62,272 bases of DNA. Origin: a bacterium (GTDB lineage Bacteria; Bdellovibrionota_C; UBA2361; SZUA-149; JAQTWB01). The translations under genes and the position numbers were made by a program. The DNA lies in NCBI GenBank assembly GCA_028689495.1, contig JAQTWB010000010.1, positions 1 to 62,272 on the forward strand, in the 5' to 3' direction. The notes beneath the pieces are model-generated. The model was given only the letters and a program-made list of their open reading frames with translations. It was not told the origin of the DNA and did not search any database. Positions 15,953 to 37,767 of the stretch are shown here, piece by piece; position 1 is the stretch's first letter, and the number at the start of each line of letters is the position of its first letter.

Positions 15953-17995
15953 TCAGTCAATAATTGCCTTAAGCAAAGCATCCCTTGCGTCAGAGTAAAA
16001 CTGAATATCGATCTTTGTTGCCATATCATCTGTTAAATCGATCAACTGGCGGCGACATGAGACCGGCATAAGTAACGCAGCCGCTCCTTTTTCAACTGCG
16101 ATTTCAGCAAGAGTAACCGGATTGTGCACGGGCTCAATTGAGCCCCCAAGATTTATTTCCCCAACAATTATCAGCCCACCTCGCACACTCTTTTTCAGTA
16201 GAGATGTACAAAGAGCGATTAATGCCGCTACTCCCAGTTTTGCACCGGCCTTGGAGGCATCAAATGCTCGCAGCTGTACTGTAAACTCATGTTGACGGGC
16301 ATCCTTGTCACCAACAAGTTGTGCCGAACGCGCGTAAAGGTTCTGCTCAGCATAGCCAAGACTCTCCCTGAATGCTGGCGGGACTGGTTTGTTGAGAATC
16401 TTAACCCCCGAGCCTCGGCCTTCATTTATCTCGATACGATAAAGTCCGGGATGATCGTCATTTCCCCCCGGGCTGATACTCCAGACCTGTCCTGGCTCAA
16501 GAGGGTCCCCGCCGACACAATTTTCGCTATTCAACTCGGGGGTGTTGACGAATTTTTCAACTCCATTGGCACCCATAACGTAACTAAAGTGGGTATTGCG
16601 AAACTCGGCGGCACCAATACGTTTTTGCTGTTCTTTAACCCGACGTCTTGACTCCATGGCGATACGAACTGCCCATTCGAGGTCATCCTCTGCAACATCC
16701 CCACCTCCAGGATAGAGAAGTTTTAGCAAACCACTGATTGTCTTGTTGACCGCAGTTGTATCCCGACCAGAAAGGGACCCCCCAAAGAAAACATGGTTCT
16801 GAAGGATACTAATGCGGCTCTGGCGGCGAAGCTGGCTCCAGCATTCGGATAGAAAGTCACTAACTAAACCAAAATGGTTGGTTAACAGCTCCTTGCTGAT
16901 TTTTGGCACATCCCAACCGGGCAAAAAGGCATGAATGCGATCCATGAATGCAGTATCATCTTTCATCTCCGGCGGCATTGGCCCGAACAAATGTCCGATG
17001 CGTTGCTGATGTTCCACATCGACATCGAAGTTACCAACCATCACGATACTGCCATCGGCTCGGATGCTTTCCTTGCCGCGGCTGAATTCGCCGGACTCCA
17101 TGTAGCCCTTCATGATGTTCACGCCGTCTTTCTGATCAAAAGAGATACCAGATACTTCATCAAAGCAGACTACATCGTATTGGCAGACCAATCCTCGCTG
17201 ACCAGTAGCGTTGTGGACAAACATCTGCGCAACTGTTGCTTTACCCCCAGAAATCAAGTGCGCGTACGGAGAGATTTGCTGGAATAGGTGACTTTTCCCT
17301 GTTCCCCGGGGTCCGAGTTCCACCAAATTGTAGTTACGCTCGACAAAAGGCACCATTCGCAACAACAGCGCATCGCGTTGTCGCTCGCTCAATCCGCCTG
17401 GTTCAATGCCGACAGACCGCAACAAAAATGTCTTCCACTGGTCAGTGGAGAACGACTTACGGGCCTCAGCTAACACATCAAGAACATCTCGCTTAGATAA
17501 CTGAATTTCCCGAAGGCCCGTGACTCCAAATGGTCGCCCCTTACTTTCCTGTGCAATAGTGACATCAAAGGTTAAAGTAATCTCGGCATAAAAACCGCCA
17601 GTCAACATACGCTCGTGCCGGTTAACCAATGCACCGCTTATACGAACTTCGTTTAAGCGCAGGCTAGGTAAAGTCGCGACATACTCCCCTTTATTGTCGA
17701 CACGAGCGGTAATACGGTCGATGATTTTCACCTCACCCGTTTCAAGCGCCCTGGCCTTAAAAAGCTCCTCCTCTCCCGCCTTGACCGTTCTGGATTTAAG
17801 TTGCCTCTCGACAATTTCAAGGCCCTCATTTATCTCATCCTGGTCTACGCTGGCGCAGTATCGGCCAAGTAAAAACTCAACGACGTAAGTCGGCACAGGG
17901 AACTGGCGGCTAAACGTCCGAACCAGATCCTTGCGAACCAGGTAGCCCTCTAAAGAGGATGCCGCTTTATTGTCGATTTGATCCATTTCAATCAT
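15953..17995 (-). CDS. brxL: BREX Lon-protease-like protein BrxL.
   Basis: 680 aa. The N-terminus (MIEMDQIDNKAASSLEGYLVRKDLVRTFSRQFPVPTYVVEFLLGRYCASVDQDEI) matches the characteristic BrxL start. It has an ATPase P-loop GPRGTGKSHLF and a Lon-like C-terminus. Its start overlaps the pglZ stop (ATGA). Confidence 0.85.
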   Translation of the reverse strand: MIEMDQIDNKAASSLEGYLVRKDLVRTFSRQFPVPTYVVEFLLGRYCASVDQDEINEGLEIVERQLKSRTVKAGEEELFKARALETGEVKIIDRITARVDNKGEYVATLPSLRLNEVRISGALVNRHERMLTGGFYAEITLTFDVTIAQESKGRPFGVTGLREIQLSKRDVLDVLAEARKSFSTDQWKTFLLRSVGIEPGGLSERQRDALLLRMVPFVERNYNLVELGPRGTGKSHLFQQISPYAHLISGGKATVAQMFVHNATGQRGLVCQYDVVCFDEVSGISFDQKDGVNIMKGYMESGEFSRGKESIRADGSIVMVGNFDVDVEHQQRIGHLFGPMPPEMKDDTAFMDRIHAFLPGWDVPKISKELLTNHFGLVSDFLSECWSQLRRQSRISILQNHVFFGGSLSGRDTTAVNKTISGLLKLLYPGGGDVAEDDLEWAVRIAMESRRRVKEQQKRIGAAEFRNTHFSYVMGANGVEKFVNTPELNSENCVGGDPLEPGQVWSISPGGNDDHPGLYRIEINEGRGSGVKILNKPVPPAFRESLGYAEQNLYARSAQLVGDKDARQHEFTVQLRAFDASKAGAKLGVAALIALCTSLLKKSVRGGLIIVGEINLGGSIEPVHNPVTLAEIAVEKGAAALLMPVSCRRQLIDLTDDMATKIDIQFYSDARDALLKAIID

Positions 17996-20337
17996 GTAAG
18001 ACCTCCACCAATTACTGTGGCGATTTGCGCAACCAGCGACCCACCACCATCGATCAGCACCACTGTTGCTTGCGCCCCCTCCATGTCCTCGTCTTCGACA
18101 ACAACGGAGGCCGTGCCGTTATCTTTAAGCGGTTTGCGGCCTAAGATCACACTGGACGATGAGTTACCAGCTTGGCGACGAATATCCAGTGATAAACCTG
18201 AAAAATTACCATCCACTGCCACAGTGCAGCGCAACCCCTTCCACACCACGTTGGTAAATCCGACAATTCCCGACACCGCGCTACGCGTGACCGTTAATTG
18301 CAGCGTCAGGCACTCCTGCAGGCTAAGGCCGCCATGGGTGTATTCTTCTCCGTTTTTGAAACAGCTCACACCATCAGCAAGCGCAAAATGCTGCTCCGGA
18401 TTCCAGTACCATGGATAAAGCCGCTCGTTAGAAACGGCCCCGGGTTTTAACGAGGCGCATCTGCCCCACTTGTTATCCGCTAAGGCACTGGGAAGATCGA
18501 TCTTGGGCAATCCACCCGGCAACAATAACCAACCGTGGTCGGTAACGACCCGAACACGTGCCCATCCAGCTTTTAAGAGCTCCGCGATCCGGTTCGCTAT
18601 CTCCAGAATCAGGGCATCAATGTTCCTGGCAAGTTTACACCCTCGGTTGTGACCCTCGTGGTCGATATCACCAAACTCGCACCAGGCCATGCCCTGGCCA
18701 TGGCCATCGGCAGAAGGTTTCAGAATTGACCACCCCGCATCGGTCAATAATTTCTTCAGGTGGTAGCCGCCCTTTAATGACTGGCCAGTGTCGACCACGG
18801 ACGGCTCAAAATCAGGACTTTCATCCTTTCCCCGAATTTTGTCTCGTACCGGAGTAACTGCAGCCTTACCCGTTGCCGTTACGCTCGGCAAGGCGGCCCA
18901 GATAGGCTCCTCGAAAATATCAAGCCCTCGCCCCTCCAAATACCCGACCAGTCGCTTCCCAGCATCAAAGCGGAGTCCATCAACAAACAGGATACAATCA
19001 CCAGTGCGGAATGTTTCCGTATTTGCAGTAAGGCAGGAGCCGCCAGGATAGGATGCACCATCGACCGACTTCTGAAGATAGCGAGCCGAATCCTCAATCC
19101 ACGGCAGGTAAACGCAACGGATAGCTGTCGTCACGGCCTCAAAGTCTGCAGGAATATCGACTTGAGCCAATGCCCGTATCAATCCGTCATCTACCAGCCA
19201 TCCTTGACTGCAATAACCAGCCGCGATTTCGTCAACCGAACCTGCGGCAAGTCCACTTTTCGTGTTCTCAGCAATAATCGCCAGATATTCCAATGTGCAG
19301 GCCAAGGGCGTAGCACCCAATTCGGCCCAGACTGAATTACGCCTTAACCCATGCTGGTGTTCCAGCTCGGTGATTTTAATCCTCGCGTCATGCGCAGGGA
19401 CATTGACCAGCGCCATTAGATCGCGGCGAAGACAATTCTCCTGATCATCACTCCATTGAGGCCAGCCATCTTTAGTTCCATCATCATTTAACCAAAATAG
19501 ATCCTTGCTAGGGGGCTGGCATTTTCTAATCTGTGAAGGGATATTAGGATAGCGCTTAGGCGCTTCGCAATAACGCTCCCAAACTGCCTGCCAGGGCCCC
19601 TCGTGGTTCGCTAGGCGGGTCGCACCAGCTAACAGACCGTCGTTGTCAGGGTTAAAAATCAATTGTGACTTGCAAACCTCAATGAAAGCTTTCCATTCGT
19701 TCTCACCACGGCTCGCTTGAAACGCATCCCCCCGATCAAGCCACTGCAGCAAATCTCGAATCGGGTCGCCACCTGTCAACAGGGTGTTGAAGTAATCTTT
19801 ATCCAGACGCTTGCCCCTCAATAACGAAACATCCTCATCGAGAAGGCGATACAGCGCGAGTTGCATGGCATTCTTGGCATCGTTATCCTGGGCCACGTCC
19901 AGCCCAAGACCACCTTGTTCGGATTTCAAATAGGCCAGGATTGTCCAATCCTTCGCATTTATTTGTGACCAGATCACGCCCCGGTATTGCAGTTCAGCAA
20001 GCGGCTTCAAGTTGTCCGGGCAACTTTCAATAGCCCGCAGGTCCTGTCGGCTGACGCCCGGCAGATAAAAAATCGGTGTCCGATCCTTGGGCAGAGAAAC
20101 ACCCTCGGCATAACCAGCCATCGCGCAGCGCAGCCAAATCGCCGGCCCAGTGCGCTTGTCTGGCGCATAGTCGCCGAGAATCAGCAGTTCAGGCAGCTCT
20201 GCCTGAAGAACGGGAATGACGGCTTCCCACTGTCGCTCGCGATCCGGCCACAGAATACATGCAGGTGCGACCTGAGCCTCCGGGTTGAACACTGCGGCAT
20301 CGCGAATGGATTTCAGGAGATGATCAAGCACTCTCAT
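17992..20337 (-). CDS. pglZ: BREX alkaline-phosphatase-superfamily protein PglZ (BrxZ).
   Basis: 781 aa. Lies between the pglX-side genes and brxL in canonical BREX type 1 order. Its first ~70 aa are duplicated at 23141 and 25197. Confidence 0.8.
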   Translation of the reverse strand: MRVLDHLLKSIRDAAVFNPEAQVAPACILWPDRERQWEAVIPVLQAELPELLILGDYAPDKRTGPAIWLRCAMAGYAEGVSLPKDRTPIFYLPGVSRQDLRAIESCPDNLKPLAELQYRGVIWSQINAKDWTILAYLKSEQGGLGLDVAQDNDAKNAMQLALYRLLDEDVSLLRGKRLDKDYFNTLLTGGDPIRDLLQWLDRGDAFQASRGENEWKAFIEVCKSQLIFNPDNDGLLAGATRLANHEGPWQAVWERYCEAPKRYPNIPSQIRKCQPPSKDLFWLNDDGTKDGWPQWSDDQENCLRRDLMALVNVPAHDARIKITELEHQHGLRRNSVWAELGATPLACTLEYLAIIAENTKSGLAAGSVDEIAAGYCSQGWLVDDGLIRALAQVDIPADFEAVTTAIRCVYLPWIEDSARYLQKSVDGASYPGGSCLTANTETFRTGDCILFVDGLRFDAGKRLVGYLEGRGLDIFEEPIWAALPSVTATGKAAVTPVRDKIRGKDESPDFEPSVVDTGQSLKGGYHLKKLLTDAGWSILKPSADGHGQGMAWCEFGDIDHEGHNRGCKLARNIDALILEIANRIAELLKAGWARVRVVTDHGWLLLPGGLPKIDLPSALADNKWGRCASLKPGAVSNERLYPWYWNPEQHFALADGVSCFKNGEEYTHGGLSLQECLTLQLTVTRSAVSGIVGFTNVVWKGLRCTVAVDGNFSGLSLDIRRQAGNSSSSVILGRKPLKDNGTASVVVEDEDMEGAQATVVLIDGGGSLVAQIATVIGGGLT

Positions 20338-22635: not shown

Positions 22636-23141
22636 TCGGCGACCTCCCTTGCAGCGCGTTTTTCCTTCAAACTCGGGTGGTGGTCGTTGATGCGGTCGCC
22701 GTCAAAGACGTGATACCAGGGGGCGGATGCGACGTCCTTGACATAGCAGGCTCTGAGGAAAAATGAACGAAACCAAATAAGATTAAAAAGGTAGCCAGAG
22801 TTTCTAGCTCCGGCATTCGCAACGAACCCAACAAACCGCCGCCGTATCGTAGTGTAGCCAGACCAGGATGGTCTGGCTACCATCGCGCTCGGGCCGTAGG
22901 GGGTTATTGGATTCATCAGCTCAATTCGTGGGGATACCTCAATAGCGGGCCCCGTCCGCTTTTCCGGCGCATAGTCGCCGAGAACCAGCAGTTCCGGCAT
23001 CCCCGCCTGAAGAATGGGAATGACGGCTTCCCACTGTCGCTCACGATCCGACCACAGAATACATGCAGGTGCGACCTGAGCCTCCGGGTTGAAAACTGCG
23101 GCATCGCGAATCAATTTCAGGAGATGATCAAGTACTCTCAT
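22632..23141 (-). pseudogene. Junction duplicate 2. It contains the pglZ 5' end (~200 bp, ~90% identical to 20140-20337), a ~175-bp spacer with palindromic E-elements, and a copy of the pglX 3' end (…VKDVASAPWYHVFDGDRINDHH…).
   Basis: The first 72 aa are nearly identical to the PglZ N-terminus (MRVLDHLLK.IRDAAVFNPEAQVAPACILW.DRERQWEAVIP.LQA..PELL.LGDYAP.KRTGPAI) and then diverge. The 3' 60 bp match the last 60 bp of pglX. Almost identical to 24688-25197. Confidence 0.7.
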
Positions 23142-23144
23142 ACG

Positions 23145-23681
23145 TCACGTTTCCTGTGCACTGTCTATGAGGCCATATGTTGTGGCCAGTGAATCATTAA
23201 TAACAGCTACAGAGACTGGCGAAAGTCCCCAGGTCTTTATTGTCGATCGTAAGGCTTTTAAAAGAGCATCATGCAACGGTGGCAACCATGCATCCTTATG
23301 CCCGTTGATGACCAAAACAAACTTCGCATCCGCTTGTGACAAATCGAGTTTCTTAAATTCATCGGGTAATTCCGAGGCAGCTTGCGGATGCCGTCTAAGA
23401 ATTGCTGCCCATCCCAAAGAAAAAGCATTGACGAGTTTCTCTCGGATTTCGGCAATAAAATCATCAAAGTTCGGCTGAGTTTTAGGGTGGGGCGTGCTGG
23501 ATTTAGCCTCAACAATCCAAATAACTGATTTACCGTTACTTACTTGCAACAGCAGAAATTCCGCCATCTGGACATGATCTTTAATTGCGGCATAGCAATT
23601 ACTCTTTTCTACACGAAAACAATAGCCATCCGGGTAAGGACCAAATGTCATATCAGATTCGATAATAGGTTGGGTCGTCAT
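23145..23681 (-). CDS. Hypothetical 178-aa protein. Cargo module 2, gene b (partner of the ATPase).
   Basis: The ORF overlaps the ATPase gene end by 4 nt. No recognisable motif. Confidence 0.4.
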   Translation of the reverse strand: MTTQPIIESDMTFGPYPDGYCFRVEKSNCYAAIKDHVQMAEFLLLQVSNGKSVIWIVEAKSSTPHPKTQPNFDDFIAEIREKLVNAFSLGWAAILRRHPQAASELPDEFKKLDLSQADAKFVLVINGHKDAWLPPLHDALLKALRSTIKTWGLSPVSVAVINDSLATTYGLIDSAQET

Positions 23682-24691
23682 TTGAGCGTCAACCCCACTT
23701 CTTCTTTATACAGACGAATCGACTCATCGATTATCGGGTTATCAGGCATTCCGCTCTTCAGATCAGAGGTCTCCCATTTATTAGTGGAGGATGAGATAAC
23801 AGGAATGGACACTCCCTTTTCCTGGGCCAGAAGATAGAGCTTTTTCACCACAAAATACGAGTGGCTTGCGAGAAAAAACTGAATGCCGCGCTCCGCCAGT
23901 ACGGCGATAATATCTAGCAACTCGGAGATCGCTGTCGGGTGGAGCGCCGACTCCGGTTCATCAATAAAAACAATCGAGTGGATATCCAGGTAACGGTTAC
24001 TCAGCAAGGTATCCAGAATGGCAATCTTCTTGATGCCTTCCGCTGTTACACCAATAGGAAACTTCTGATTACCCTTTTTAAACTGCCAGCGTCCTGAAAC
24101 TTCATCGTATTCAACTTTGCCGCCAAACATATCTTCCAACCGTTTTCGTGAATCGGAAAATTCCTTAAAATTTTTACCACGCTGTGGCAACTGTCTTAAC
24201 GCGCGAGTTAGATCGAGATACGTATCATCAAAGCCAAATAATTTATCCTGCTCGCGAGATTTAAGAATAATCTGATGCAGCGACAGCACCTCTTTGGCCG
24301 GCAAAAAAATAGAATTGCTGCTTCTAGGTGGGATGTGATTTTCCAGAGATGCGATCTGTTTAGTTGTGTCTTTTCTGAATTTATAGCTGAATCCGTTGCG
24401 CTCAAATTCCATCTCAAAGGACAATGATCCGTCAGCACCTTTTGTCACAAGCTCGCCAATTTTGTCGGCTTGAAAGGTCCAGTATAACTTGTCGGCAAGA
24501 ATCTCTGACGCGGACTTGAGCTCATCACCACGTTTATACTCCTCTATTGTTCGCATTGCGGAATAGAGAGCTTTTAAAAGAAACGTCTTACCTGTACTGT
24601 TGCCTCCTAAAACCAAGTTAATTTTACCTAACTGATTCCAGTGAAGGTCGGTCAAAGGTCCGAAGTTTTTGAGTCCTATCTTGTTAATCAT
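23678..24691 (-). CDS. ABC-type (AAA_21/SMC-like) ATPase. Cargo module 2, gene a.
   Basis: Walker A GGNSTGKTFLLKALY; Walker B/D-loop IVFIDEPESALHP; H-loop LASHS. 337 aa, the compact size of defence-associated minimal ABC ATPases. Its ATG overlaps the upstream stop (ATGA). Confidence 0.7.
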   Translation of the reverse strand: MINKIGLKNFGPLTDLHWNQLGKINLVLGGNSTGKTFLLKALYSAMRTIEEYKRGDELKSASEILADKLYWTFQADKIGELVTKGADGSLSFEMEFERNGFSYKFRKDTTKQIASLENHIPPRSSNSIFLPAKEVLSLHQIILKSREQDKLFGFDDTYLDLTRALRQLPQRGKNFKEFSDSRKRLEDMFGGKVEYDEVSGRWQFKKGNQKFPIGVTAEGIKKIAILDTLLSNRYLDIHSIVFIDEPESALHPTAISELLDIIAVLAERGIQFFLASHSYFVVKKLYLLAQEKGVSIPVISSSTNKWETSDLKSGMPDNPIIDESIRLYKEEVGLTLK

Positions 24692-25197
24692 AACTTCTCT
24701 CCCAAGCTATTCTTTTTATCTTCTAATTTCAGGTGGTGGTCGTTGATGCGGTCGCCGTCAAAGACGTGATACCAGGGTGCAGATTCCACGTCCTTGACAT
24801 AGCAGGCTCTGAGGAAAAATGAACGAAACCAAATAAGATTAAAAAGGTAGCCAGAGTTTCTAGCTCCGGCATTCGCAACGAACCCAACAAACCGCCGCCG
24901 TATCGTAGTGTAGCCAGACCAGGATGGTCTGGCTACCATCGCGCTCGGGCCGTAGGGGGTTATTGGATTCATCAGCTCAATTCGTGGGGATACCTCAATA
25001 GCGGGCCCCGTCCGCTTTTCCGGCGCATAGTCGCCGAGAACCAGCAGTTCCGGCATCCCCGCCTGAAGAATGGGAATGACGGCTTCCCACTGTCGCTCAC
25101 GATCCGACCACAGAATACATGCAGGTGCGACCTGAGCCTCCGGGTTGAAAACTGCGGCATCGCGAACCGCTTTCAGGAGATGATCAAGAACCCTCAT
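24688..25197 (-). pseudogene. Junction duplicate 1: pglZ 5' end, spacer with E-elements, and pglX 3'-end copy (…VKDVESAPWYHVFDGDRINDHH…).
   Basis: As for 22632-23141; the two duplicates are ~98% identical to each other. Confidence 0.7.
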
Positions 25198-25231: not shown

Positions 25232-28200
25232 TCATTCGCCCTCCTGTTCGTTTTCGGCAATAACTCGCCTAGCCTCTCGATCGTATCCCTCCGCCAAACC
25301 TCTTAAGATTGCTGCAAATCGCTGAAACCCTGCATTCTCAACTTTCTCGGCTTTAATTCGGAACTGTTCTGCGAATTCTCTCTCCGGCTTCCCGGTTGGG
25401 TCAACCCAACGAACACCGCGTGAGTTGTATATCCCCGTCCTGAAACCGGCGCGCATATTATCAGCTTCACGGTCATTTAATGCGTCAGCGACAGTGCGGT
25501 GTATCCATAATCCGTCTGGGTGCGGTGGGGTATGAATCAATACTTCGCCAATATTGCTGAGAGCAACTTCCAGGTGGCCGGACTCCGTACAGACTTCTTT
25601 TACCCTCTTGAGCCAGTCTATAAAACTCTCTTCGCTGAACGTTCCATCCTTCTGTGTTCCCGGCGGTGTCTTCCACTGATGCAGTAGCCGCCAGGCGTTT
25701 GCTGCTATCGCCTTTTTCTCCTCAGTGGGGTCTGTCAATGGCGGATCTTCATTTTTGGAACGGTAAATCAATCGAATGACCTCACAAAAGAACTCGGGGT
25801 CATTCGCCAGTCTGCTTTCAAGGAGTTGGGGCGCCGCTCCTCTATGATGGTCGAGCAAGGAAACATACGCCCACTCAACTCTAAAGAGGTCTTCTTCATT
25901 GACTGAAGGCTCTGCCTGAAGAAACTGGATCAATTCGACAATGTCGTGCTCGTCCATAACATAGCGCGGCTCATTGGAGGACAGCGCAGCAAGCAACGCT
26001 CTGACACATTGACTACTATCGATAGGTTGCTTGGCATGGCGCATCTTGTCCAGGCAGCCTATCGCCGCGTGTGGTCTGCCGTATTCAAGGAGCTTCTCAA
26101 CTGCCATCTCAAGATCACCATCAGCCTGATAGGCATTCGCGCCAGTGCGAGTCCAGTATTCTCTCTCTTTCGCCTGAAGCCATTCAGAGGCGCGATCCCA
26201 TGCTCCCCGAATAAACGGCAAACATGCCAGGAACTGTCCTACTTGTTCTGGTGACCAGTCGGATTTATCGATATCGTCGCACCACTCCCAGCCTTTGAGG
26301 AGATGACTCCGCCAGATAAAACCACTCACCAACGCCGTGTGCTTATCGTCCGCGGAATCCAGGAAGTGGGGCAAAAAGGTCCGCTCAATGATTGAGTCGG
26401 CAATAGCGCCAAGCGCGTGCCCTACCTGCCTGGGAGCAGAAACTGATTCGGCAAATCGAATCAAACCCTCCGCACAATCTTGCTGAAAAATTTCCGAAAT
26501 GGCCGTTTCACGTCGGGTATCGAGTTTCTTGCGCTGTTCCTCCCAATCGCCATCTTCTTCATAAAGATCGAAATCGCGATCCGTAAAAAGATGCTGATAT
26601 AAGTTGAACGGGTTGGTGGGGGCGAGTAGCTCAGCAACCTGTTCAATGCGGGTAATCAGCTCATCTGACAATGCCCATTTTGCATCGGAGAACCGGCGGT
26701 GTTTGTTTGTGAATTTTGCAAGATGGTCCCAAATCAAAAGTCGCTGCTCTTCGGGAAGCGCAGCGATGGGTAGGGAAGCAAGAACATCGAGTAGTTGATC
26801 AAAAGCTGATTTAGGCAGGTGATCAAAATGATCAATCAATGCAGAAAGCCTAGCGGTATCTTCACCAGCGGTCTCCACCGCAAGCTCCGCGTAAAAAGTT
26901 GCCTGCTGCCAATATTCTTGCGTCGTCACATCCCCCCAATCATCGGGGATTATCTGACGCCAAATTGGTTTGTGCGACCCAGAGGAAATCTGGCGCTGGC
27001 CGGGTAAAAGCTTATTAATCAAGTTCCATGCTATATCAGGATTCTCACGAAGAATTGTCTGCACTGCGGCTTGGCGCTTTTCAACCCCTGCCAGCGTTTG
27101 CGGAAACCAAGGAAGCAATATAGCGGTGAGCGAATTGAATGGTCGATTGTCCCAATTACCCCCCGGATCATGGCTGGCAAGGTCGGCAAGCGCAACACAA
27201 ACTCGAACGAGATATTGTTCATCCCATGCCAGCCCCTCTAACGCCCAAAGGAGGCCGGTCAGATAATTCCTTCCAAAAATCCCCCCATCCTCCTCATTGA
27301 AGAGGTCTACAAATGGACAAGAACTTTGCTTGAGCGCAAACTCGACCGCATCGAGAAATTGCGTTGGCGCCACTTCGGCCAAGATGGGTAATAAATCGTT
27401 GACGCTTCCCCATCTCTTCCAATCCGCCTCCTCGAAAAGCTCTCTTATAAACGAGGCGCAGATCGTCTCTGTCTTATCGGGCGAACACTGCTTACAAACC
27501 TCGGGGTAACTCCCAATGATGGCTAACCCTTCAGCAATACCCTTTCGCAGGTCCTTGGAGCTTTTTAATACTTTGCCATAAATGCTTGCAGCACTTCTAT
27601 CGTCAGCCGGCAGCTCAAATATGGGATCACTCTCCGTCATGATCCTCAGAGCAATGCTCCTAAAGGTATCGAGATCATTATCCAAAATACGCGACCCCAG
27701 CATCCTCCAAAGCTCAACTCGATTACCAACTTTCCAGATGCCGTTTTTGAGAGACAACGGACTATCAGGGGTGTGCAATATCTCCCGTGCCTTCTTGAGC
27801 CAGGCGTCATAACTGACACCGAGCAGTTCGGTTATTGCCTCACGGTCGCATTCACTCTTTTCGTTCCAGCTACCAATCAGGATTGCTTGTGTCAGACAGG
27901 TGGCGTCTGGGTGATGAGTCCACACACTGGAAATCTCTATTGCTTTTGGATTGGCAGTTATGTTTATATTGTTGACTGCCGCTTTAACCACAATAAGGCA
28001 AATTTCCGCCGTATATCGATCCGGATTAAAGTCCTCTTTCATTTGTTGATATGGATGAATGTAATTACGGAAATTTCTTAAGGTCTGACCGAACTGCTTA
28101 ACATCTTGCCTTACAATTCCAAGATCGTGTGCGACATTAATGAACTGCTCGAGACTCCAGTCTTTAAAGTCTTTGCTCTTTCCTCTCTGATCTTTCGGTG

Positions 28201-28471
28201 ATTGTGTTGATCTATTAAAGTCCGCAGGTTTCTTATTAGCCAATCCAATAAGTAGACCCTCTAATAGAGAGCCACAAAGTATAATGGTTGCCAGGGGCGA
28301 ATGTGGCAAACAACGCTGCGCTTCAATAAAACGTTCCTCAAGAAGACGCACGAGTTTTGGATCTAATAATGAAGATGGAAGAGACAGTTCTTCAACTGCT
28401 TCGGCAGCGTCTTTAGGTACTGGTGCAATTAGAAGGGTGTTCAGCTCTTCTTGCTTCATATTACCACTCAC
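25232..28471 (-). CDS. Large uncharacterised protein (1079 aa) with a possible N-terminal HEPN-like domain. Cargo module 1.
   Basis: The start codon shares its A with the pglX stop. The N-terminal ~170 aa carry GSLLEGLL...RNFRNYIHP (Rx6H). The remainder is W/L-rich and looks helical. No catalytic motif recognised. Confidence 0.5.
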   Translation of the reverse strand: MSGNMKQEELNTLLIAPVPKDAAEAVEELSLPSSLLDPKLVRLLEERFIEAQRCLPHSPLATIILCGSLLEGLLIGLANKKPADFNRSTQSPKDQRGKSKDFKDWSLEQFINVAHDLGIVRQDVKQFGQTLRNFRNYIHPYQQMKEDFNPDRYTAEICLIVVKAAVNNINITANPKAIEISSVWTHHPDATCLTQAILIGSWNEKSECDREAITELLGVSYDAWLKKAREILHTPDSPLSLKNGIWKVGNRVELWRMLGSRILDNDLDTFRSIALRIMTESDPIFELPADDRSAASIYGKVLKSSKDLRKGIAEGLAIIGSYPEVCKQCSPDKTETICASFIRELFEEADWKRWGSVNDLLPILAEVAPTQFLDAVEFALKQSSCPFVDLFNEEDGGIFGRNYLTGLLWALEGLAWDEQYLVRVCVALADLASHDPGGNWDNRPFNSLTAILLPWFPQTLAGVEKRQAAVQTILRENPDIAWNLINKLLPGQRQISSGSHKPIWRQIIPDDWGDVTTQEYWQQATFYAELAVETAGEDTARLSALIDHFDHLPKSAFDQLLDVLASLPIAALPEEQRLLIWDHLAKFTNKHRRFSDAKWALSDELITRIEQVAELLAPTNPFNLYQHLFTDRDFDLYEEDGDWEEQRKKLDTRRETAISEIFQQDCAEGLIRFAESVSAPRQVGHALGAIADSIIERTFLPHFLDSADDKHTALVSGFIWRSHLLKGWEWCDDIDKSDWSPEQVGQFLACLPFIRGAWDRASEWLQAKEREYWTRTGANAYQADGDLEMAVEKLLEYGRPHAAIGCLDKMRHAKQPIDSSQCVRALLAALSSNEPRYVMDEHDIVELIQFLQAEPSVNEEDLFRVEWAYVSLLDHHRGAAPQLLESRLANDPEFFCEVIRLIYRSKNEDPPLTDPTEEKKAIAANAWRLLHQWKTPPGTQKDGTFSEESFIDWLKRVKEVCTESGHLEVALSNIGEVLIHTPPHPDGLWIHRTVADALNDREADNMRAGFRTGIYNSRGVRWVDPTGKPEREFAEQFRIKAEKVENAGFQRFAAILRGLAEGYDREARRVIAENEQEGE

Positions 28472-31400
28472 TAAGTTAATTTCCTCGCATCGCCTTTTAC
28501 TTCCAGGGTCAAGTGGTGGTCGTTGATTCGGTCGCCGTCAAAGACGTGATACCAGGGTGCTGATTCAACATCCTTACCCCGGTCCTTATTCCAGTTGATG
28601 TTGGGTTTGTCGCGCAGGACGCCTGCGCCTTTCTTGCCGACATCGGGCACGCTGAGGAAGGGGCGGATGTTGAGGCGAACACCGTCGTTGAGATCGGGGT
28701 CCCAGCCGATGGGCTGTTTTTCCAGTGGTTTCCAGCGAACAAAGATGTCATAGGGCGCTTGGCCTTCGAGAATCAGCTCCAGCTTTTTCTTGAGGCTTTC
28801 TGCTGCGGCTAGGCGTTCCTGGGCTCCGTCCACTTTACTGGCGATGTCCTGTTTCTGGCGGCTGATCCAGTCGCCCAGATAGGTATATATCAGGGTTTCA
28901 AGCAGCTTGGCGTCGAGCTTGTGGTAGTTGACCAGGGCGGCGAATCCGTCTGGCAGGCCATCCCAGATGTGCCAGATGAAGGGGCGATGCTGGAACAGCT
29001 TGCAGTGCTGAGTGAAGAACTTCTCCCGCAGCCAGGTCTCCAGTGTCTTGCCCGCGTGATCGGCGCTTTTGAGCAGCGCGGCCAGGGGAACGGTAGCCAG
29101 ACCATCTTGGTCTGGACTTTCAGAAGAATTACCAGAGCTAGAAGCTCTGGCTACCTTGTAGGCGGCGGCCAGCAGGTTCAGCAGGCGGTCGGACGCAGAT
29201 GCTTCACCCCGTACCGGCGGGATGCAGACGATGCCGTCATCATCAGCGTAGCTAGATAGGCTTTCGCAGCGCTTAACCCATTCGCGCTGCTCCTCGGCCA
29301 GTTCCATGCTGGCATCCAACTCGGCAGGCCAACGGTAGCCGAGGAGTCGGGCAACTGCGACTTGCAGCACGGTAGCGTCGGTGCGCAGAGTTGAAGCGGA
29401 TTCCAACCGCTTTGTTTCTTCATTCCAAACTACCGAACCACACGGATGGCCGTGGAAGATCCATTGGGTGGGGTCGTTGGTGTAGGGTTTAGGGAGACCG
29501 TTCGGATATTTTTCTTCTGCGACTTTTGTCCAGCGGTCGAGGTCAAAGGGGACTTTTGTTATTGTCGCGGCGGTAACCTTTAATGCTTGGTCGACAGCGC
29601 GAACGTTTTCATGGAACACATCTGACTCTACATAAGCAAAAATTGCAGGAATAACATTCTCGGTAGATGGGCAAATCGGACATATGTTGTCATCGAAAGC
29701 CTCACCATTATAAAGAAATGGCTCTAACTTTCTCATTTTGTTGACAACAACGCCTCTACGACAAAAAACACTTTGACCGTGTAGGCGGCATCCAAGCTGC
29801 GTGTTTAGCTCGACATCATCTAAGGGAACTTTGCAAAGCTGTGAGCGACCAGTCCATGGATTTCCAGCATTTGGTGAGTTAAGCCAATAAACATGGGTCT
29901 TTTCGCCCTCGGGGAACTCCCAGAAGTACATCAAAAACCTTGGCCCATCCCCAGTTGTGCTTCCTTTTCCATAGTCAGCTATTTCAGCTAGTAGAGGCAG
30001 ACTTTGAAACTTTTCAAAGCCAACCCTAGCATCCGGATTCTCCAACTGCTTCGCTTGCTCAACGCTCTTGATTTCTGCCGTCCGCAGTTGCGCCGCTTTT
30101 TCGGTAGCGGTGCGGGGCTCGGAGACATCAACACCGCGAATCAGGTTAGGAGCAGCATCGTGGTGTGGCCTGTCGCCTTCAGACCAGAGCTGGAAGCTCT
30201 GGCTACCTTCTGCGCCACGGCTGAGGATGATCATTGCTACGAACGCACCCGCTGCCGCTGACGAATCAAATCCGCCTTCACCCAACCGCGCTATCAGATG
30301 CCAGGTGTCTCTCTTTAGCAGCTTCTCGCGGAATTTTTTGTAGCTGGTCAGGAAGAGCCAGTTCTGTGGCAAGACGATGCTGGACGTGCCGCCCTCAACG
30401 CAAAGTTCCAAACAGCGCTCGAGAAATACAGTCGCCAGATCGTTCTTCGCCGCCGGATAGTGTCTTTCGCAGAAATCCCTCAGTCCCTCAGTTTGCTTGC
30501 CTCGCGCCAGATATGGCACATTGGTGATGACCCAATGATATCGCTGTGCGAGCAGGGTTACAGCTTTTGCTACGCCGCGCGCTACCACGGCTGTCTCGTG
30601 ATGTTCAAAAGGAGCTTCGGCACCAACAGCCTGCTCCAACACCTGGCACACATCGTTCCAACCAAAACCAAAGTTATTTTTAGGCCCGACAAGCTCGGAT
30701 GCCTCTGTTTTGTGTGGGTCTATCAAACTTCCCAGTATAGGTGCCCGAGCAAATAGATCGTGTAGAATCCCCAGCGCTAAATATATGTTCTGCTTCCGAG
30801 CACCAAGTTGACGCCATTCCTCTCGACTCATAGTTACCGACAACCCAGAGCAGGCCAGATGAAGTTCAGGCAGCACACGGTAGCCACCGGCGTTCGGGTA
30901 TTTCCAGGCGGTCAGCGCCAGGGCAAAAGCGGCCAGCTCCACGCAACGCTGATCCAGTTCCAGACCATGGATGTTTTCCCTCAGCACCGCATCAACTGCG
31001 TCCCTGGCCGACAACCCCTCGCGCTCCATGCGCATCGGCACCAGCATCAGGAAGGCTGCCACCAGGAAATGGCCCGAACCGCAGCAGGGGTCGAGGATCT
31101 TCAGATCGGCAAGTTGCTCCGGCCAGCTGTCAAAGGTCCCAGCCGCCGGCATAAAGGTAGCCGGACCATCCTGGTCTGGCACCTCCAATCCAGCAAATTC
31201 CTCCGACCCGGGTGTTATGGTAGCCAGACCATCTTGGTCTGGCCTCTTCCAACGCCACTTCCAATCGCCCAACCCCGCTTTATCGGGGTTATCCCACGTG
31301 TACTGGATCTGAAAAAAATACTCTTTCTCAGACCTGATGATGTGGTTGTAAGCGTCTTCCTGCCATAAATGACCCTTTCGACCCAGATACTTATTGGCCT

Positions 31401-32760
31401 CATTAGCGGTGAAAGACTTCCAGGAATGTATAATTCCGGACAGCTCCCATCCTTGATGGGGCTCCACAATGACATGCACATGATTGGGCATTATGCACCA
31501 GGCGTGCAATTGATAACGCTCCCCATCAAAATAGCGCAAAGCATTAGCGACCATATCGGCAATATCCGGGTTGACGAGACAACATTCGCCAGCTCCCGAA
31601 TCCAGGAAAGCCTCAATTCGTTCGGAATAAAGGAACTGGATGCGCTTTTGCTCCTCTTCATTGAGGGGGCGATTGGCAAGGATAGCCTGATCTTCGATCG
31701 CTTTGCGTTCCGCAAACCAGGCATCACGTTTGGCAGAGGGGACCGAATCAGCAAGACGAAAACAAACATGGTAAATGGCCCGGTCGCAGGTCCAATGCGG
31801 TAAATTTTCGCCTTTTGTGATTGAGAGAGAAGTTTCGTCCAATCCCGGGATGCTGAGAAGGCCAGACCAGGATGGTCTGGCTACCTTTTCGCGGCACCGA
31901 TGCGTCTGTGGCTCGCTGGGGATGCCAGAGCTTCCAGCTCTGGCGACAACAAAACGCAGATAGTCCAGCGGCACACCGGGGATAGCCGCCTTCCGGCGCA
32001 GTTCCTCTTCGCTGCTGGCGTTTTTAAGGTCGGCTTCGCTGAGCCGTCTTGCCGCCCACCAGGCGCCCAAAGAGTTGTCGAGCAGGAAGCTGACCATATA
32101 GGGCTCGGTGAAGAGCTGGGTGACGGCAGGCAACTCCCTGCTGCCTATCTTAACTTCCGATTTGTTGATCCGTTCTTTATTGTCGGCCTGCCAGAACTGA
32201 TAGACCCAGCCCAAAGAATCCGAGGCAGTGAAAACCGGAAGCTCCAGATCCGCCACCAGGCGCTCGAGTTTTTGCTGATGCTCGGGTGGCAAGCTCAGTT
32301 GGAATACCGGCGAGTCGAGCCGGAAGATCTGCGGCAGCATGCGGGCAGCAAACCGGGCGGCCAGCTCCCAACCGTTAGCCGCGCCTTCATCGGCGGCGAG
32401 GTCTTCACACTCTTCGAGGGTGACTGCTACTGGATCGTCCGGGTCGGGATACATCAGCAGATTGTTCTCGGCCAAAAATCGCGCGAATAGCATGCGGTGC
32501 CAGTGCTCGTAGGCAACCTCTTCGATCAGGCGATCCATGGTTTGAATCTTGCTGCCATTGAGTGAATCACCCAGTTGCCGGCCGTGAACGCGCAGCTTAC
32601 GGCGCAGCTCCCGTTCCTGTTCGCTCAGGTGCGCAAAGGGCGCGGTTTCACCCACGGCAAGCTGTTCCAGCGCGGCTCGGGCAGCGTCCTCGGCAATATC
32701 ACGCGCATCTTTGATGGTGCGTTCGAGTCGGTTTCTCAATGTTTTGTCGAGCGGCTGCAT
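28471..32760 (-). CDS. pglX: BREX adenine-specific DNA methyltransferase PglX, enlarged to 1429 aa by in-frame palindromic insertions.
   Basis: Methyltransferase motif I DPCCGSGHFLVAAF and motif IV NVPY (VITNVPYLARGK). It sits between brxC and pglZ. At least six ~26-bp palindromes are inserted in frame. Confidence 0.85.
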   Translation of the reverse strand: MQPLDKTLRNRLERTIKDARDIAEDAARAALEQLAVGETAPFAHLSEQERELRRKLRVHGRQLGDSLNGSKIQTMDRLIEEVAYEHWHRMLFARFLAENNLLMYPDPDDPVAVTLEECEDLAADEGAANGWELAARFAARMLPQIFRLDSPVFQLSLPPEHQQKLERLVADLELPVFTASDSLGWVYQFWQADNKERINKSEVKIGSRELPAVTQLFTEPYMVSFLLDNSLGAWWAARRLSEADLKNASSEEELRRKAAIPGVPLDYLRFVVARAGSSGIPSEPQTHRCREKVARPSWSGLLSIPGLDETSLSITKGENLPHWTCDRAIYHVCFRLADSVPSAKRDAWFAERKAIEDQAILANRPLNEEEQKRIQFLYSERIEAFLDSGAGECCLVNPDIADMVANALRYFDGERYQLHAWCIMPNHVHVIVEPHQGWELSGIIHSWKSFTANEANKYLGRKGHLWQEDAYNHIIRSEKEYFFQIQYTWDNPDKAGLGDWKWRWKRPDQDGLATITPGSEEFAGLEVPDQDGPATFMPAAGTFDSWPEQLADLKILDPCCGSGHFLVAAFLMLVPMRMEREGLSARDAVDAVLRENIHGLELDQRCVELAAFALALTAWKYPNAGGYRVLPELHLACSGLSVTMSREEWRQLGARKQNIYLALGILHDLFARAPILGSLIDPHKTEASELVGPKNNFGFGWNDVCQVLEQAVGAEAPFEHHETAVVARGVAKAVTLLAQRYHWVITNVPYLARGKQTEGLRDFCERHYPAAKNDLATVFLERCLELCVEGGTSSIVLPQNWLFLTSYKKFREKLLKRDTWHLIARLGEGGFDSSAAAGAFVAMIILSRGAEGSQSFQLWSEGDRPHHDAAPNLIRGVDVSEPRTATEKAAQLRTAEIKSVEQAKQLENPDARVGFEKFQSLPLLAEIADYGKGSTTGDGPRFLMYFWEFPEGEKTHVYWLNSPNAGNPWTGRSQLCKVPLDDVELNTQLGCRLHGQSVFCRRGVVVNKMRKLEPFLYNGEAFDDNICPICPSTENVIPAIFAYVESDVFHENVRAVDQALKVTAATITKVPFDLDRWTKVAEEKYPNGLPKPYTNDPTQWIFHGHPCGSVVWNEETKRLESASTLRTDATVLQVAVARLLGYRWPAELDASMELAEEQREWVKRCESLSSYADDDGIVCIPPVRGEASASDRLLNLLAAAYKVARASSSGNSSESPDQDGLATVPLAALLKSADHAGKTLETWLREKFFTQHCKLFQHRPFIWHIWDGLPDGFAALVNYHKLDAKLLETLIYTYLGDWISRQKQDIASKVDGAQERLAAAESLKKKLELILEGQAPYDIFVRWKPLEKQPIGWDPDLNDGVRLNIRPFLSVPDVGKKGAGVLRDKPNINWNKDRGKDVESAPWYHVFDGDRINDHHLTLEVKGDARKLT

Positions 32761-37748: not shown

Positions 37749-37767
37749 GCCTTGATTGGTTGGGCGT

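What the first reader, a model, noticed from the sequence alone, without database searches (positions are those of the whole stretch)
25232..28471. Cargo 1: a 1079-aa uncharacterised protein with a HEPN-like Rx6H motif, translationally fused into the BREX operon directly after pglX
The start codon shares a nucleotide with the pglX stop. The N-terminal ~170 aa carry GSLLEGLL…LRNFRNYIHP, consistent with the HEPN Rx4-6H signature. The remaining ~900 aa form a predicted helical region, and no known catalytic motif was recognised. Position and operon embedding make it a candidate new defence effector or BREX accessory factor.
Basis: inference. Interest (0 to 1): 0.7.

Follow-up and report, generated by a model that had tools for sequence, protein, structure and literature searches.

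The report
HEPN RNase–solenoid protein embedded in BREX
The 1079-residue gene after pglX is real and encodes a likely RNA-cutting HEPN head on a large helical-repeat body; it belongs to a huge unannotated family that carries many different immune "warheads", so it is probably a new abortive-infection defence protein riding inside BREX and type I restriction operons.

Summary
The ORF lies at 25232-28471 on the minus strand and encodes 1079 aa. Its GTG start shares one base with the pglX stop (TAGTG), and both quoted motifs are present.

This C-terminal module defines a very large family: 7163 cluster representatives, from bacteria and archaea, all named "hypothetical". Its N-terminal position is swapped among at least 12 domain types: HEPN (three kinds), SIR2, TIR, PNP, Schlafen, SMEK, FRG, GT4-conflict, metallophosphatase, HTH and two unknown types.

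The HEPN-bearing form follows pglX (BREX-1) or hsdS (type I R-M) directly in 14 of 16 independent loci.

Best reading: a single-polypeptide abortive-infection effector, with a latent HEPN RNase controlled by a solenoid sensor, carried as a cargo cassette. A PrrC-like "guardian of restriction" role is the main rival. There is no experimental evidence, so this is a candidate new defence family.

The parts
25232..28471 (-). Whole gene: 1079-aa HEPN + alpha-solenoid protein (NCBI MDD2942060.1 is called from the ATG at 28459)
   Evidence: ORF list and translation. 100% match to P0001. More than 1500 homologues. 7163 cluster representatives.
28469..28473 (-). Start/stop overlap TAGTG: the pglX stop TAG (28473-28471) overlaps the GTG start (28471-28469). 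A GAGGA Shine-Dalgarno-like box lies about 10 nt upstream.
   Evidence: Sequence. Homologues show the same coupling to pglX or hsdS.
27950..28363 (-). HEPN domain (aa ~37-174)
28052..28081 (-). Predicted catalytic motif L-R132-N-F-R135-N136-Y-I-H139-P (Rx6H)
   Evidence: Position. R, R, N and H are invariant in 133 aligned relatives.
28250..28273 (-). Conserved helix motif GSLLEGLL (aa 67-74; G and E invariant)
27725..27904 (-). Small alpha/beta element (H-E-H-H-E-E) at the start of the conserved module. It may be a winged-helix-like element; this is inference from secondary structure only.
   Evidence: DSSP on the C-terminal model. No fold match was obtained for it separately.
25235..27724 (-). 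HEAT/ARM-like alpha-solenoid (~830 aa), the conserved family core
27140..27169 (-). Near-invariant loop DPGGNWDNRP (family motif DPGG.W.NRP...LPW.PQT)
   Evidence: Invariant columns in alignments A3 and A4. Position.
25382..25426 (-). Near-invariant C-terminal loop NSRGVRWVDPTGKPE
28471..32760 (-). Upstream pglX (1429 aa), the BREX-1 methyltransferase/specificity gene to which the target is coupled
   Evidence: PADLOC PglX E = 0. Pfam Eco57I, N6_Mtase, MmeI_Mtase.
24688..25197 (-). Adapter ORF J1 (169 aa) directly downstream. It consists of pglZ codons 1-66, then REP-like hairpins, then the last ~30 codons of pglX. It delimits the target's cassette.
17992..20337 (-). Genuine pglZ (781 aa), which closes the cargo region
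   Evidence: NCBIfam BREX_PglZ_1_B, E 3.5e-283.

Best explanation
The gene encodes a self-contained abortive-infection-type immune protein, carried as a cargo cassette in the pglX-pglZ gap of a type 1 BREX operon.

**Shown**
- The N-terminal ~175 aa has a HEPN fold with an invariant R-x6-H motif.
- The other ~900 aa is a short alpha/beta element plus a HEAT-like solenoid. This module is the conserved core of a very large family.
- In relatives, the N-terminal slot is occupied by interchangeable immune effector domains.
- The gene is co-oriented with pglX and start/stop-overlapped with it.

**Inferred**
- In uninfected cells the solenoid keeps the HEPN domain inactive, for example monomeric or occluded.
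- During infection the solenoid senses a trigger. This is most likely a phage protein or another conserved infection cue, bound directly in the way the DSR2 helical-repeat domain binds a phage protein.
- Sensing lets two HEPN domains pair into the composite, metal-independent RNase site.
- The active RNase cleaves tRNA, rRNA or mRNA, stops translation and aborts the infection.
- Placement inside BREX or type I R-M gives co-expression with the first-line system, so the protein acts as a second layer when restriction fails.
For: **HEPN head**
- R128, R131, N132 and H135 in ATG numbering (R132, R135, N136, H139 in GTG numbering) are invariant in 133 sequences.
- DUF4145-type and DUF3644-type HEPN domains are proven defence RNases in RAZR (PMC13017515) and HEC-08 (10.1101/2024.01.29.577857).

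**Family and effector swapping**
- The family has 7163 representatives at E <= 1e-3.
- The N-terminal slot holds SIR2_2, TIR_2, PNP_UDP_1, SLFN_AlbA_2, SMEK_N, FRG, GT4-conflict, Abi_C, DUF4062 or Metallophos.
- Several of these match PADLOC effector models of short-pAgo, CBASS and AbiJ systems. The matches fall only in the N-terminal part.
- A split form exists in which the N-terminal domain is a separate overlapping gene.

**Genomic context**
- 14 of 16 independent HEPN-form loci lie directly after pglX or hsdS.
- Other forms lie beside Abi, SieB, AbiE, PIN and TIR genes, Shedu plus type I R-M, integrases and plasmid regions.
- The family is absent from 50,697 phage records.

**Autonomy of the sensor**
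- The same C-terminal module works in stand-alone loci.
- BREX-embedded and R-M-embedded HEPN forms are interleaved by sequence identity. This argues that the sensor does not depend on one particular host system.

**Precedent**
- 'Guilt by embedding' has a high validation rate: 7 of 9 embedded candidates tested were active, including HEC-02, which is also present in this window (10.1101/2024.01.29.577857).
Against: - There is no experimental evidence for any family member.
- The Pfam DUF4145 hit is below threshold (18 vs 23.1 bits).
- The C-terminal module is unusually conserved (60-78% identity across phyla, with many invariant Trp, Pro, Gly and Arg residues). This is atypical for a fast-evolving phage-protein receptor. 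It could instead indicate a conserved host ligand, a nucleic acid, or an enzymatic or assembly function.
- The strict placement of the HEPN form after the specificity gene (14/16) is more than a generic defence-island effect and fits the guardian rival.
- Some type-A members sit among housekeeping or polysaccharide genes.
Confidence: 0.5

Rival explanations
1. Guardian of restriction (PrrC- or PARIS-like). The protein docks on, or monitors, the methyltransferase/specificity complex (PglX in BREX, HsdS/HsdM in type I R-M), or it senses phage anti-restriction proteins such as Ocr-like DNA mimics that hit both systems. It releases its HEPN RNase only when the first-line system is disabled.
For: - The HEPN form is found directly downstream of pglX or hsdS in 14/16 loci, usually with start/stop overlap. 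That arrangement would give stoichiometric co-production.
- The HEPN module alone, in small proteins, also sits between hsdS and hsdR (L062, L058, L063).
- PrrC, a HEPN anticodon nuclease, occupies exactly this position in EcoprrI and is released by T4 Stp (PMC3710099, PMC12707154).
- From outside knowledge, not tested here: BREX and type I R-M share the inhibitor Ocr. PARIS, which senses Ocr, is described as an R-M guardian in PMC12707154.
- HEPN-form C-termini diverge faster than the type-A 'hub'.
Against: - The same C-terminal module functions in many stand-alone contexts with other effectors.
- PglX and HsdS are unrelated partner surfaces, yet BREX- and R-M-embedded proteins are interleaved in sequence.
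- Embedding may simply reflect a recombination hot spot that also holds HEC-02, GmrSD, RhuM, Abi_2, Schlafen and DarTG (PMC12255303).
- No interaction test was possible.
Confidence: 0.27
2. Integral BREX accessory subunit. The protein is part of the BREX machinery itself, for example a scaffold or specificity/regulatory partner of PglX, and is required for BREX methylation or exclusion rather than being an independent effector.
For: - Operon position and 1-nt overlap with pglX.
- Six BREX-1 loci from different lineages carry it in the same slot.
Against: - None of the PADLOC BREX protein models match it.
- It occurs equally in type I R-M, and other forms stand alone.
- The slot also holds unrelated cargo such as GmrSD and HEC-02.
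- It is bounded by an adapter ORF that marks it as an inserted cassette.
- How often BREX-1 loci in general lack it was not measured here.
Confidence: 0.05
3. Non-immune or selfish role. Either the HEPN domain is a non-catalytic nucleotide/RNA-binding module on a structural or regulatory solenoid protein, or the protein is a fused toxin-antitoxin-type addiction module that merely stabilises the mobile cassette or locus.
For: - Distant family members carry N-terminal HTH_3 domains and are annotated as HigA antitoxin or HTH regulators.
- Some members lie among housekeeping genes.
- Very high conservation across phyla suggests mobile, self-maintaining elements.
Against: - The invariant R/N/H motif is typical of catalytic HEPN domains (PMC3710099).
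- The alternative N-terminal domains are nearly all enzymatic immune effectors.
- Contexts are rich in defence genes.
Confidence: 0.1

Closest known systems
PrrC anticodon nuclease of the EcoprrI type Ic R-M locus (and its stand-alone relative RloC)
   Same: - A HEPN-superfamily RNase gene embedded between the specificity gene and the restriction gene of a methylation-based defence operon.
- Established as a latent second-line suicide effector (PMC3710099, PMC12707154).
- A stand-alone paralogue exists, as in this family.
   Different: - PrrC has an N-terminal ABC-type ATPase and a C-terminal HEPN domain.
- The protein here has an N-terminal HEPN domain, no NTPase (no Walker A, no AAA/ABC Pfam hit) and a ~900-aa solenoid.
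- No sequence relationship was detected.
DSR2 (defence-associated sirtuin 2) and similar single-chain effector-plus-helical-repeat sensors
   Same: - Architecture: an N-terminal enzymatic effector followed by a large alpha-helical repeat domain in one polypeptide.
- A branch of this family carries SIR2 in the same slot.
   Different: - No PADLOC model of any kind, and therefore no DSR model that library may hold, matches the C-terminal module, even in the SIR2-bearing members. The library's DSR content was not checked separately.
- The resemblance is architectural analogy, not family membership.
DUF4145/DUF3644-type HEPN immune proteins: RAZR (Zn-finger + DUF4145), Ishtar, HEC-08
   Same: - Single-gene systems with a divergent HEPN RNase whose R/H motif is needed for defence (PMC13017515; 10.64898/2026.07.06.735840; 10.1101/2024.01.29.577857).
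- There is weak DUF4145 similarity here.
   Different: - The partner domains are small Zn-finger or beta-rich modules rather than an 890-aa solenoid.
- The Pfam DUF4145 threshold is not reached.
- This HEPN subtype forms its own cluster, shared with a ~275-aa protein family.
'Auxiliary/backup effectors' and embedded systems of BREX and R-M loci (BrxU/GmrSD, HEC systems, DarTG2 in type I R-M)
   Same: - A gene inserted inside the core operon of a methylation-based system, in a recognised hot spot (PMC12839542, PMC12255303, 10.1101/2024.01.29.577857).
- The window also holds HEC-02, PDC-S19 and a Schlafen-type gene in such slots.
   Different: - This family is not among the PADLOC v2 models, including the HEC and PDC candidates.
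- PMC12839542 says HEPN domains in BREX loci are typically stand-alone modules, in some cases fused to MNT nucleotidyltransferases. It mentions no solenoid fusion in the passages read.
STAND/NLR-like (Avs, bNACHT) and short-pAgo effector-swapping platforms
   Same: The same repertoire of interchangeable N-terminal effectors (SIR2, TIR, REase/SMEK, Schlafen, HEPN, PNP) on a conserved sensor platform. The SIR2 and SMEK modules here match the short-pAgo partner models.
   Different: - There is no NTPase, APAZ or PIWI domain.
- The platform is an NTPase-free alpha-solenoid with no known relative.

Membership tests
HEPN superfamily | Four-helix up-down bundle HEPN fold | tested here: met
HEPN superfamily | Conserved Rx4-6H motif with a polar residue after the R | tested here: met
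   R132-N-F-R-N-Y-I-H139. R, R, N and H are invariant in 133 relatives.
HEPN superfamily | Metal-independent endoribonuclease activity, usually through dimerisation | not testable with these tools
   Needs biochemistry. Inferred from the motif only.
Pfam DUF4145 (PF13643) | Score above the gathering threshold of the family model | tested here: not met
   18.0 bits against a cut-off of 23.1, E 0.0031. 12.6 bits for homologue P0004. It is treated as a related but separate HEPN subfamily.
BREX type 1 core components (BrxA, BrxB, BrxC, PglX, PglZ, BrxL) | Matches one of the six core protein models | tested here: not met
   No PADLOC or NCBIfam BREX model hits the protein. All six core genes are separately present in the window.
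BREX type 1 core components (BrxA, BrxB, BrxC, PglX, PglZ, BrxL) | Association restricted to BREX loci | tested here: not met
   The same HEPN form is embedded in type I R-M in 7 loci, and other forms stand alone.
PrrC/RloC anticodon nucleases | N-terminal ABC-type ATPase regulating a C-terminal HEPN domain | tested here: not met
   No ATPase domain in Pfam and no Walker A motif. The HEPN domain is N-terminal.
PrrC/RloC anticodon nucleases | Embedding within an R-M operon between the specificity and restriction genes (PrrC) | tested here: met
   hsdS-X-hsdR in L025-L028 and L038-L040, hsdS-X in L034 and L039, and hsdM-hsdS-X in L042, where hsdR was not seen. pglX-X-pglZ in six BREX loci.
DSR1/DSR2 | Sequence or structure similarity of the C-terminal sensor domain to a known defence sensor | tested here: not met
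STAND/NLR-like (Avs) immune sensors | Central P-loop STAND NTPase | tested here: not met
   No AAA/NACHT/NB-ARC Pfam hit and no Walker A motif.
Anti-phage defence system (generic) | Protects against phage or mobile-element infection when expressed | not testable with these tools
   Comparative support only: effector swapping, embedding, and absence from phage records.

The most novel reading that the evidence does not exclude
- The ~890-aa module may be a previously unrecognised, NTPase-free immune sensor platform of bacteria and archaea. It would be comparable in reach to STAND/NLR or short-pAgo platforms, with at least 12 effector types and about 7000 clusters at 50% identity.
- Its HEPN-armed branch may be a dedicated guardian of methylation-based immunity. 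It would be translationally coupled to the specificity subunit of either BREX or type I R-M, and would fire when that system is neutralised by phage anti-restriction proteins.
- The branch may spread between operons as plug-and-play cassettes, joined by chimeric adapter ORFs that preserve translational coupling.
Probability: 0.25. Interest if true: 0.85.

Novelty: new variant of a known kind. Interest (0 to 1): 0.7.

Why it matters
- **A large unannotated family.** If the reading is right, several thousand 'hypothetical proteins' across bacterial phyla and some archaea belong to one modular immune family that current defence-finding resources miss (Pfam 2025, NCBIfam 2026 and PADLOC v2).
- **A new sensor type.** It would add a structural sensor, a solenoid without an NTPase, to the effector-swapping logic known from NLR-like, pAgo and DSR systems.
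- **A tractable test of layered immunity.** The HEPN branch bears on an open question: how do second-line abortive effectors embedded in R-M and BREX operons know that the first line has failed? The same protein occurs in two mechanistically different host systems, so it can be tested in both.
- **Cassette stacking.** The adapter-ORF structure around the gene suggests how cargo is stacked inside defence operons without breaking operon expression.

Tried and rejected
- **E. coli genomes.** Megablast of the gene found no match.
- **Curated protein libraries.** Pfam, PADLOC and NCBIfam gave nothing on the full protein or on type-A, type-B, type-E, split and 275-aa relatives. The exceptions were the weak DUF4145 hit and the N-terminal effector hits.
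- **PDB by sequence.** Profiles of the HEPN domain (A1) and of the C-terminal module (A3) gave only chance-level hits.
- **Genome scans.** The single-sequence scan gave only 9 loci.
- **Phage records.** tblastn found no match. I therefore rejected the idea that this is a phage gene or a prophage superinfection-exclusion gene.
- **Conserved partner gene.** I looked for one. The downstream small genes of type-A loci (196 aa and 176 aa) are unrelated to each other and to the 169-aa ORF in the window, so a two-gene system was rejected.
- **Relationships among N-terminal types.** hhalign of type A against type B, SMEK and Schlafen, and of the window HEPN domain against type E and Abi_C, showed no relationship. 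A nuclease assignment for the majority type-A domain (conserved E...DD...QxK) therefore remains a guess.
- **Literature.** Eight full-text searches found no description of this family. The library is incomplete, so prior description cannot be excluded.
- **Base composition.** The gene does not stand out from the BREX core.
- **Transcription signals.** The promoter/terminator scan is uninformative, apart from terminator-like REP hairpins in the adapters.
Full report
**1. Observation**

The window holds an uninterrupted 1079-codon ORF at 25232..28471 on the minus strand. Its GTG start shares one base with the TAG stop of the upstream 1429-aa ORF (...ACTTAGTGAGTGG...).

That upstream ORF is PglX. 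It matches the PADLOC PglX model at 1724 bits and Pfam Eco57I, N6_Mtase and MmeI_Mtase.

All other BREX-1 genes are present in the same orientation:
- BrxA-like, 38306-39235
- BrxB, 37768-38343 (88% identical to a Pfam-BrxB protein)
- BrxC, 34308-37853
- PglZ, 17992-20337
- BrxL, 15953-17995

NCBI's own call for this metagenome-assembled genome starts at an ATG 12 nt downstream (1075 aa, 'hypothetical protein', MDD2942060.1). Homologues begin MSGELKQ... at the position of the GTG, and their starts overlap the stop of their upstream gene.

Both quoted motifs are present: GSLLEGLL at aa 67-74 and LRNFRNYIHP at aa 131-140, which makes R132-x6-H139. The accurate wording is 'translationally coupled', not 'fused'.

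**2. Anatomy**

*N-terminal domain.* Pfam gives only a sub-threshold DUF4145 hit (E 0.003, 18 bits against a cut-off of 23.1). PADLOC and NCBIfam give nothing.

Further HEPN proteins followed: AbiA, LsoA, AbiV, RnlA and HepS. In the alignment R128, F130, R131, N132, Y133, I134, H135 and P136 (ATG numbering; add 4 for GTG numbering) are invariant, as are G63 and E67 of the GS.LEG helix. The HEPN assignment is therefore structural, and the Rx6H motif is under strong constraint.

*C-terminal region.* I predicted the C-terminal 902 aa with 107 sequences and obtained pLDDT 89.8 and pTM 0.63. It is all-alpha apart from a small H-E-H-H-E-E element at its start. That element may be winged-helix-like, but this rests on secondary structure only.
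- Foldseek finds only HEAT proteins at TM <= 0.28.
- A sequence profile finds nothing in the PDB.
- There is no Walker A motif.

The region is a HEAT/ARM-like solenoid of a kind not yet solved.

**3. The family**

The protein has 1532 scored homologues (E <= 0.001 among the 8000 candidates scored) in the 90%-clustered collection. Every one that carries a source name is called 'hypothetical', and none has a Pfam domain on record. An exhaustive HMMER search of 1.84 billion cluster representatives gave 7163 hits at E <= 1e-3 and 3059 at E <= 1e-30.

What is conserved is the C-terminal ~890 aa (query residues ~180-1075). Conservation is striking: 60-78% identity between Victivallales, Rhodocyclaceae, Chlorobium, Planctomycetes, Desulfobulbus, Aliidiomarina and Syntrophus, and about 56% to one archaeal member (Methanoperedens). 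There are many invariant Trp, Pro, Gly and Arg residues and two near-invariant loops, DPGG.W.NRP...LPW.PQT and NSRGV..VDP.GK.E.

The N-terminus is interchangeable. Clustering 247 N-termini gave the following picture:

| N-terminal type | Notes |
|---|---|
| Type A, ~280 aa | Majority type. No database hit. Conserved E...DD...QxK |
| Type B, ~365 aa | No database hit |
| HEPN type of the window, ~175 aa | 16 members |
| SIR2_2 | Pfam hit |
| PNP_UDP_1 | Pfam hit |
| FRG | Pfam hit |
| GT4-conflict | Pfam hit |
| Abi_C | A second HEPN family |
| 'HEQRNxLYH' type | A third, canonical Rx4H type |
| SMEK_N | Pfam hit |
| DUF4062 | Pfam hit |
| TIR_2 | Pfam hit |
| SLFN_AlbA_2 | Pfam hit |
| Metallophos | Pfam hit |
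| HTH_3 | Distant plasmid members, annotated 'HigA antitoxin' or 'HTH regulator' |
| None (~860-aa forms) | The N-terminal domain is a separate overlapping gene |

PADLOC recognises several of these N-termini as effectors of known systems: short-pAgo SIR2 (E 1e-102 to 1e-117), the Aga REase/SMEK module, bSEFIR, the CBASS PN effector and AbiJ. It never recognises the C-terminal module.

The window's HEPN module also forms the C-terminal half of a separate ~275-aa protein family at 50-60% identity (559 hits).

**4. Context**

I obtained 16 independent loci for the HEPN-bearing form.

| Setting | Loci |
|---|---|
| BREX-1, pglX - X - pglZ | window, L005-7 (Syntrophus), L008, L018 (Synergistetes), L036, L041 |
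| pglX 3' remnant upstream only | L033, the closest relative |
| Type I R-M, after hsdS and before hsdR | L025/26/40, L027/38, L028, L032, L034, L039, L042 |
| After an HEC-02-like AAA_21 plus small-protein pair | L035, L037 |

So 14 of 16 lie directly after the specificity-determining gene, typically with overlapping stop and start. For L032 the upstream gene was not scanned. It is called hsdS from its C-terminal tail only.

By C-terminal identity, BREX-embedded and R-M-embedded proteins are interleaved. Each is about as close to the type-A 'hub' (68-86%) as to other HEPN forms (58-90%). This points to repeated hopping between the two kinds of operon, and either faster divergence or repeated domain swaps.

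Non-HEPN forms are placed more freely:
- next to type I R-M plus Shedu (L022)
- beside a PIN_8/HEPN_RES_NTD1 gene (L023)
- beside a transposase (L024)
- in an integrase-bounded island with a TIR protein (L011)
- on conjugative plasmids next to Abi, SieB and AbiEii/AbiEi genes (L029-L031)
- among polysaccharide or housekeeping genes (L001, L009)

No member occurs in 50,697 phage records, and the gene has no near-identical DNA match in complete E. coli genomes.

**5. How it most likely works**

*Shown:*
- A HEPN fold with an invariant catalytic-type motif.
- A conserved solenoid platform.
- Effector interchange.
- Operon coupling.
- Defence-rich contexts.

*Established knowledge:*
- HEPN domains with Rx4-6H are metal-independent RNases that need dimerisation (PMC3710099, PMC13017515).
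- HEPN RNases embedded in R-M operons act as latent suicide effectors, with PrrC as the paradigm (PMC3710099, PMC12707154).
- Genes embedded in defence operons are very often defence systems themselves: 7 of 9 tested in 10.1101/2024.01.29.577857, including HEC-02, which is present two genes downstream here.
- BREX loci are known to carry auxiliary or backup nucleases (PMC12839542).

*Inferred:* the solenoid holds the HEPN domain inactive, senses an infection cue and promotes HEPN pairing. RNA cleavage then arrests translation and aborts infection.

I favour an autonomous sensor (confidence about 0.5). The same platform works with many effectors in many stand-alone contexts, and the proteins from BREX and R-M are interleaved.

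The main rival (about 0.27) is a PrrC- or PARIS-type guardian that monitors PglX or HsdS complexes or senses anti-restriction proteins. It is supported by the near-exclusive position after the specificity gene. It is also supported by the finding that even the small HEPN-only relatives sit between hsdS and hsdR (L062, L058, L063).

An integral BREX subunit (about 0.05) and a non-immune or addiction role (about 0.1) are less likely.

One caution applies to all of these. The high conservation of the solenoid is unusual for a receptor of fast-evolving phage proteins. It may point to a conserved ligand, a nucleic acid or an assembly function.

**6. Comparison with known systems**

In position and effector class the protein works like PrrC. 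In architecture it works like DSR2, Avs or short-pAgo partners. It is a member of none of these:
- It has no ABC ATPase.
- It has no STAND NTPase.
- It gives no PADLOC match of any kind in the C-terminal module, and no defence protein appears among the listed PDB fold matches.
- It does not reach the DUF4145 threshold.

It is a HEPN-superfamily protein: fold and motif were tested and met, and activity is untested. It is not a BREX core component.

**7. Novelty and value**

I found no model in Pfam (2025), NCBIfam (2026) or PADLOC v2, and no description in eight full-text literature searches. Prior description elsewhere cannot be excluded.

I rate it a new variant of a known kind: a single-chain effector-plus-sensor abortive-infection protein, and an R-M/BREX-embedded HEPN backup effector. 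Its sensor platform is large, widespread and structurally new. Interest 0.7.

**8. Things seen on the way**

*Adapter ORFs.*
- The cargo region between pglX and pglZ is built from three cassettes: the target; HEC-02A/B; and a 430-aa unknown plus PDC-S19.
- The cassettes are separated by two 96%-identical 169-aa 'adapter' ORFs.
- Each adapter consists of pglZ codons 1-66, about 200 nt with two REP-like hairpins (GTAG + palindrome), and the last ~30 codons of pglX.
- Each adapter ends exactly where the next cargo gene starts.
- A type I R-M locus shows the analogous chimera, hsdR 5' + hsdS-like tail, between the family gene and RhuM/Abi_2 (L032).

*REP-like hairpins inside pglX.*
- The same hairpins lie inside the coding sequence of pglX.
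- Compared with the closely related PglX of L036, the window's PglX carries a ~255-aa in-frame insertion at about aa 272-534. Its ends lie next to hairpins, and it contains a Y1_Tnp (IS200/RAYT-like) segment.
- It also carries a 16-aa in-frame insertion made of a hairpin doublet.

Noticed in passing
window 24688-25197 and 22632-23141 (minus strand); compare L032:4323-4640: Two 96%-identical 169-aa 'adapter' ORFs separate the three cargo cassettes between pglX and pglZ. Each consists of pglZ codons 1-66, about 200 nt with REP-like hairpins, and the last ~30 codons of pglX, and each ends exactly where the next cargo gene starts. This keeps start/stop coupling along the operon. A type I R-M locus has the analogous chimera (hsdR 5' plus an hsdS-like tail) between the family gene and RhuM/Abi_2. 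Together these suggest a general way of stacking cargo cassettes.
   Followed up: partly
window about 31160-31945 (PglX aa ~272-534); hairpins at 31187-31243 and 31854-31899: The window's PglX (1429 aa) carries a ~255-aa in-frame insertion relative to the closely related PglX of L036 (1148 aa). REP-like hairpins (GGTAGCCAGACCA...TGGTCTGGC) lie at its two ends, and it contains a Pfam Y1_Tnp (IS200/RAYT-like) segment at aa 413-468, E 5e-7. This may be a REP/RAYT-type element living in frame inside a defence methyltransferase.
   Followed up: partly
window 29089-29169 (also 30183-30221): A doublet of the same REP-like hairpins lies inside the pglX coding sequence. It corresponds to a 16-aa in-frame insertion (..ARASSSGNSSESPDQDGLATV..) that is absent from L036 PglX.
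   Followed up: partly
window 32770-34371 (minus strand): A 533-aa Schlafen/AlbA_2 + HATPase_c_4 + Fic-like_C protein is inserted between brxC and pglX. This matches the 'Schlafen-histidine kinase-wHTH' backup effector class described for BREX loci in PMC12839542. A similar gene follows the family gene in L042.
   Followed up: no
window 23145-24691 and 20363-22635 (minus strand): Two other cargo cassettes. One is HEC-02A/HEC-02B (ABC ATPase plus NERD-like nuclease), a system validated experimentally in 10.1101/2024.01.29.577857. The other is a 430-aa protein with no database hit plus a PDC-S19 candidate. HEC-02-like pairs also neighbour the family gene in L035, L036 and L037.
   Followed up: partly
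P0271-P0390 (e.g. P0361 in L014:8001-8843); L062:8004-8435, L058, L063: The window's HEPN module (LR[DN]FRNYIHPYQQ) is also the C-terminal half of a separate, unannotated ~275-aa protein family (559 hits). One member lies in an integrative conjugative element. Small HEPN-only relatives sit between hsdS and hsdR, including one in a human-gut contig.
   Followed up: partly
P0008 aa 1-285 and relatives (type-A N-terminus); P0146 aa 1-365 (type B): The two commonest N-terminal domains of the family have no hit in Pfam, NCBIfam or PADLOC. hhalign shows no relation between them or to SMEK, and none between type A and Schlafen. Type A conserves GGGG.{2}FE...DD...QxK, which could be a PD-(D/E)xK-like nuclease signature, but this is unproven.
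   Followed up: partly
L029:152-4264 (Shewanella baltica OS195 pS19502), L030:4672-8736 (Rhizobium gallicum plasmid): Distant family members (25-30% identity over the whole C-terminal module) are annotated in RefSeq as 'HigA family addiction module antitoxin' or 'helix-turn-helix transcriptional regulator'. The only basis is a ~50-aa N-terminal HTH_3 domain on proteins of 1350-1370 aa, so these are probably misleading names.
   Followed up: partly
window 24850-24870 and 22794-22814 (minus strand): One of the REP-like hairpins in each adapter ORF is followed by a T-rich run and scores as an intrinsic-terminator-like site. It might attenuate transcription between cassettes.
   Followed up: no
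L001:7790-9259 versus L001:14127-15627: In a Gammaproteobacteria genome, the type-A family gene and its small neighbours sit between two successive copies of a Glycos_transf_2 + Hexapep gene pair in a polysaccharide cluster. This may be another case of flanking duplication around an inserted cassette.
   Followed up: no
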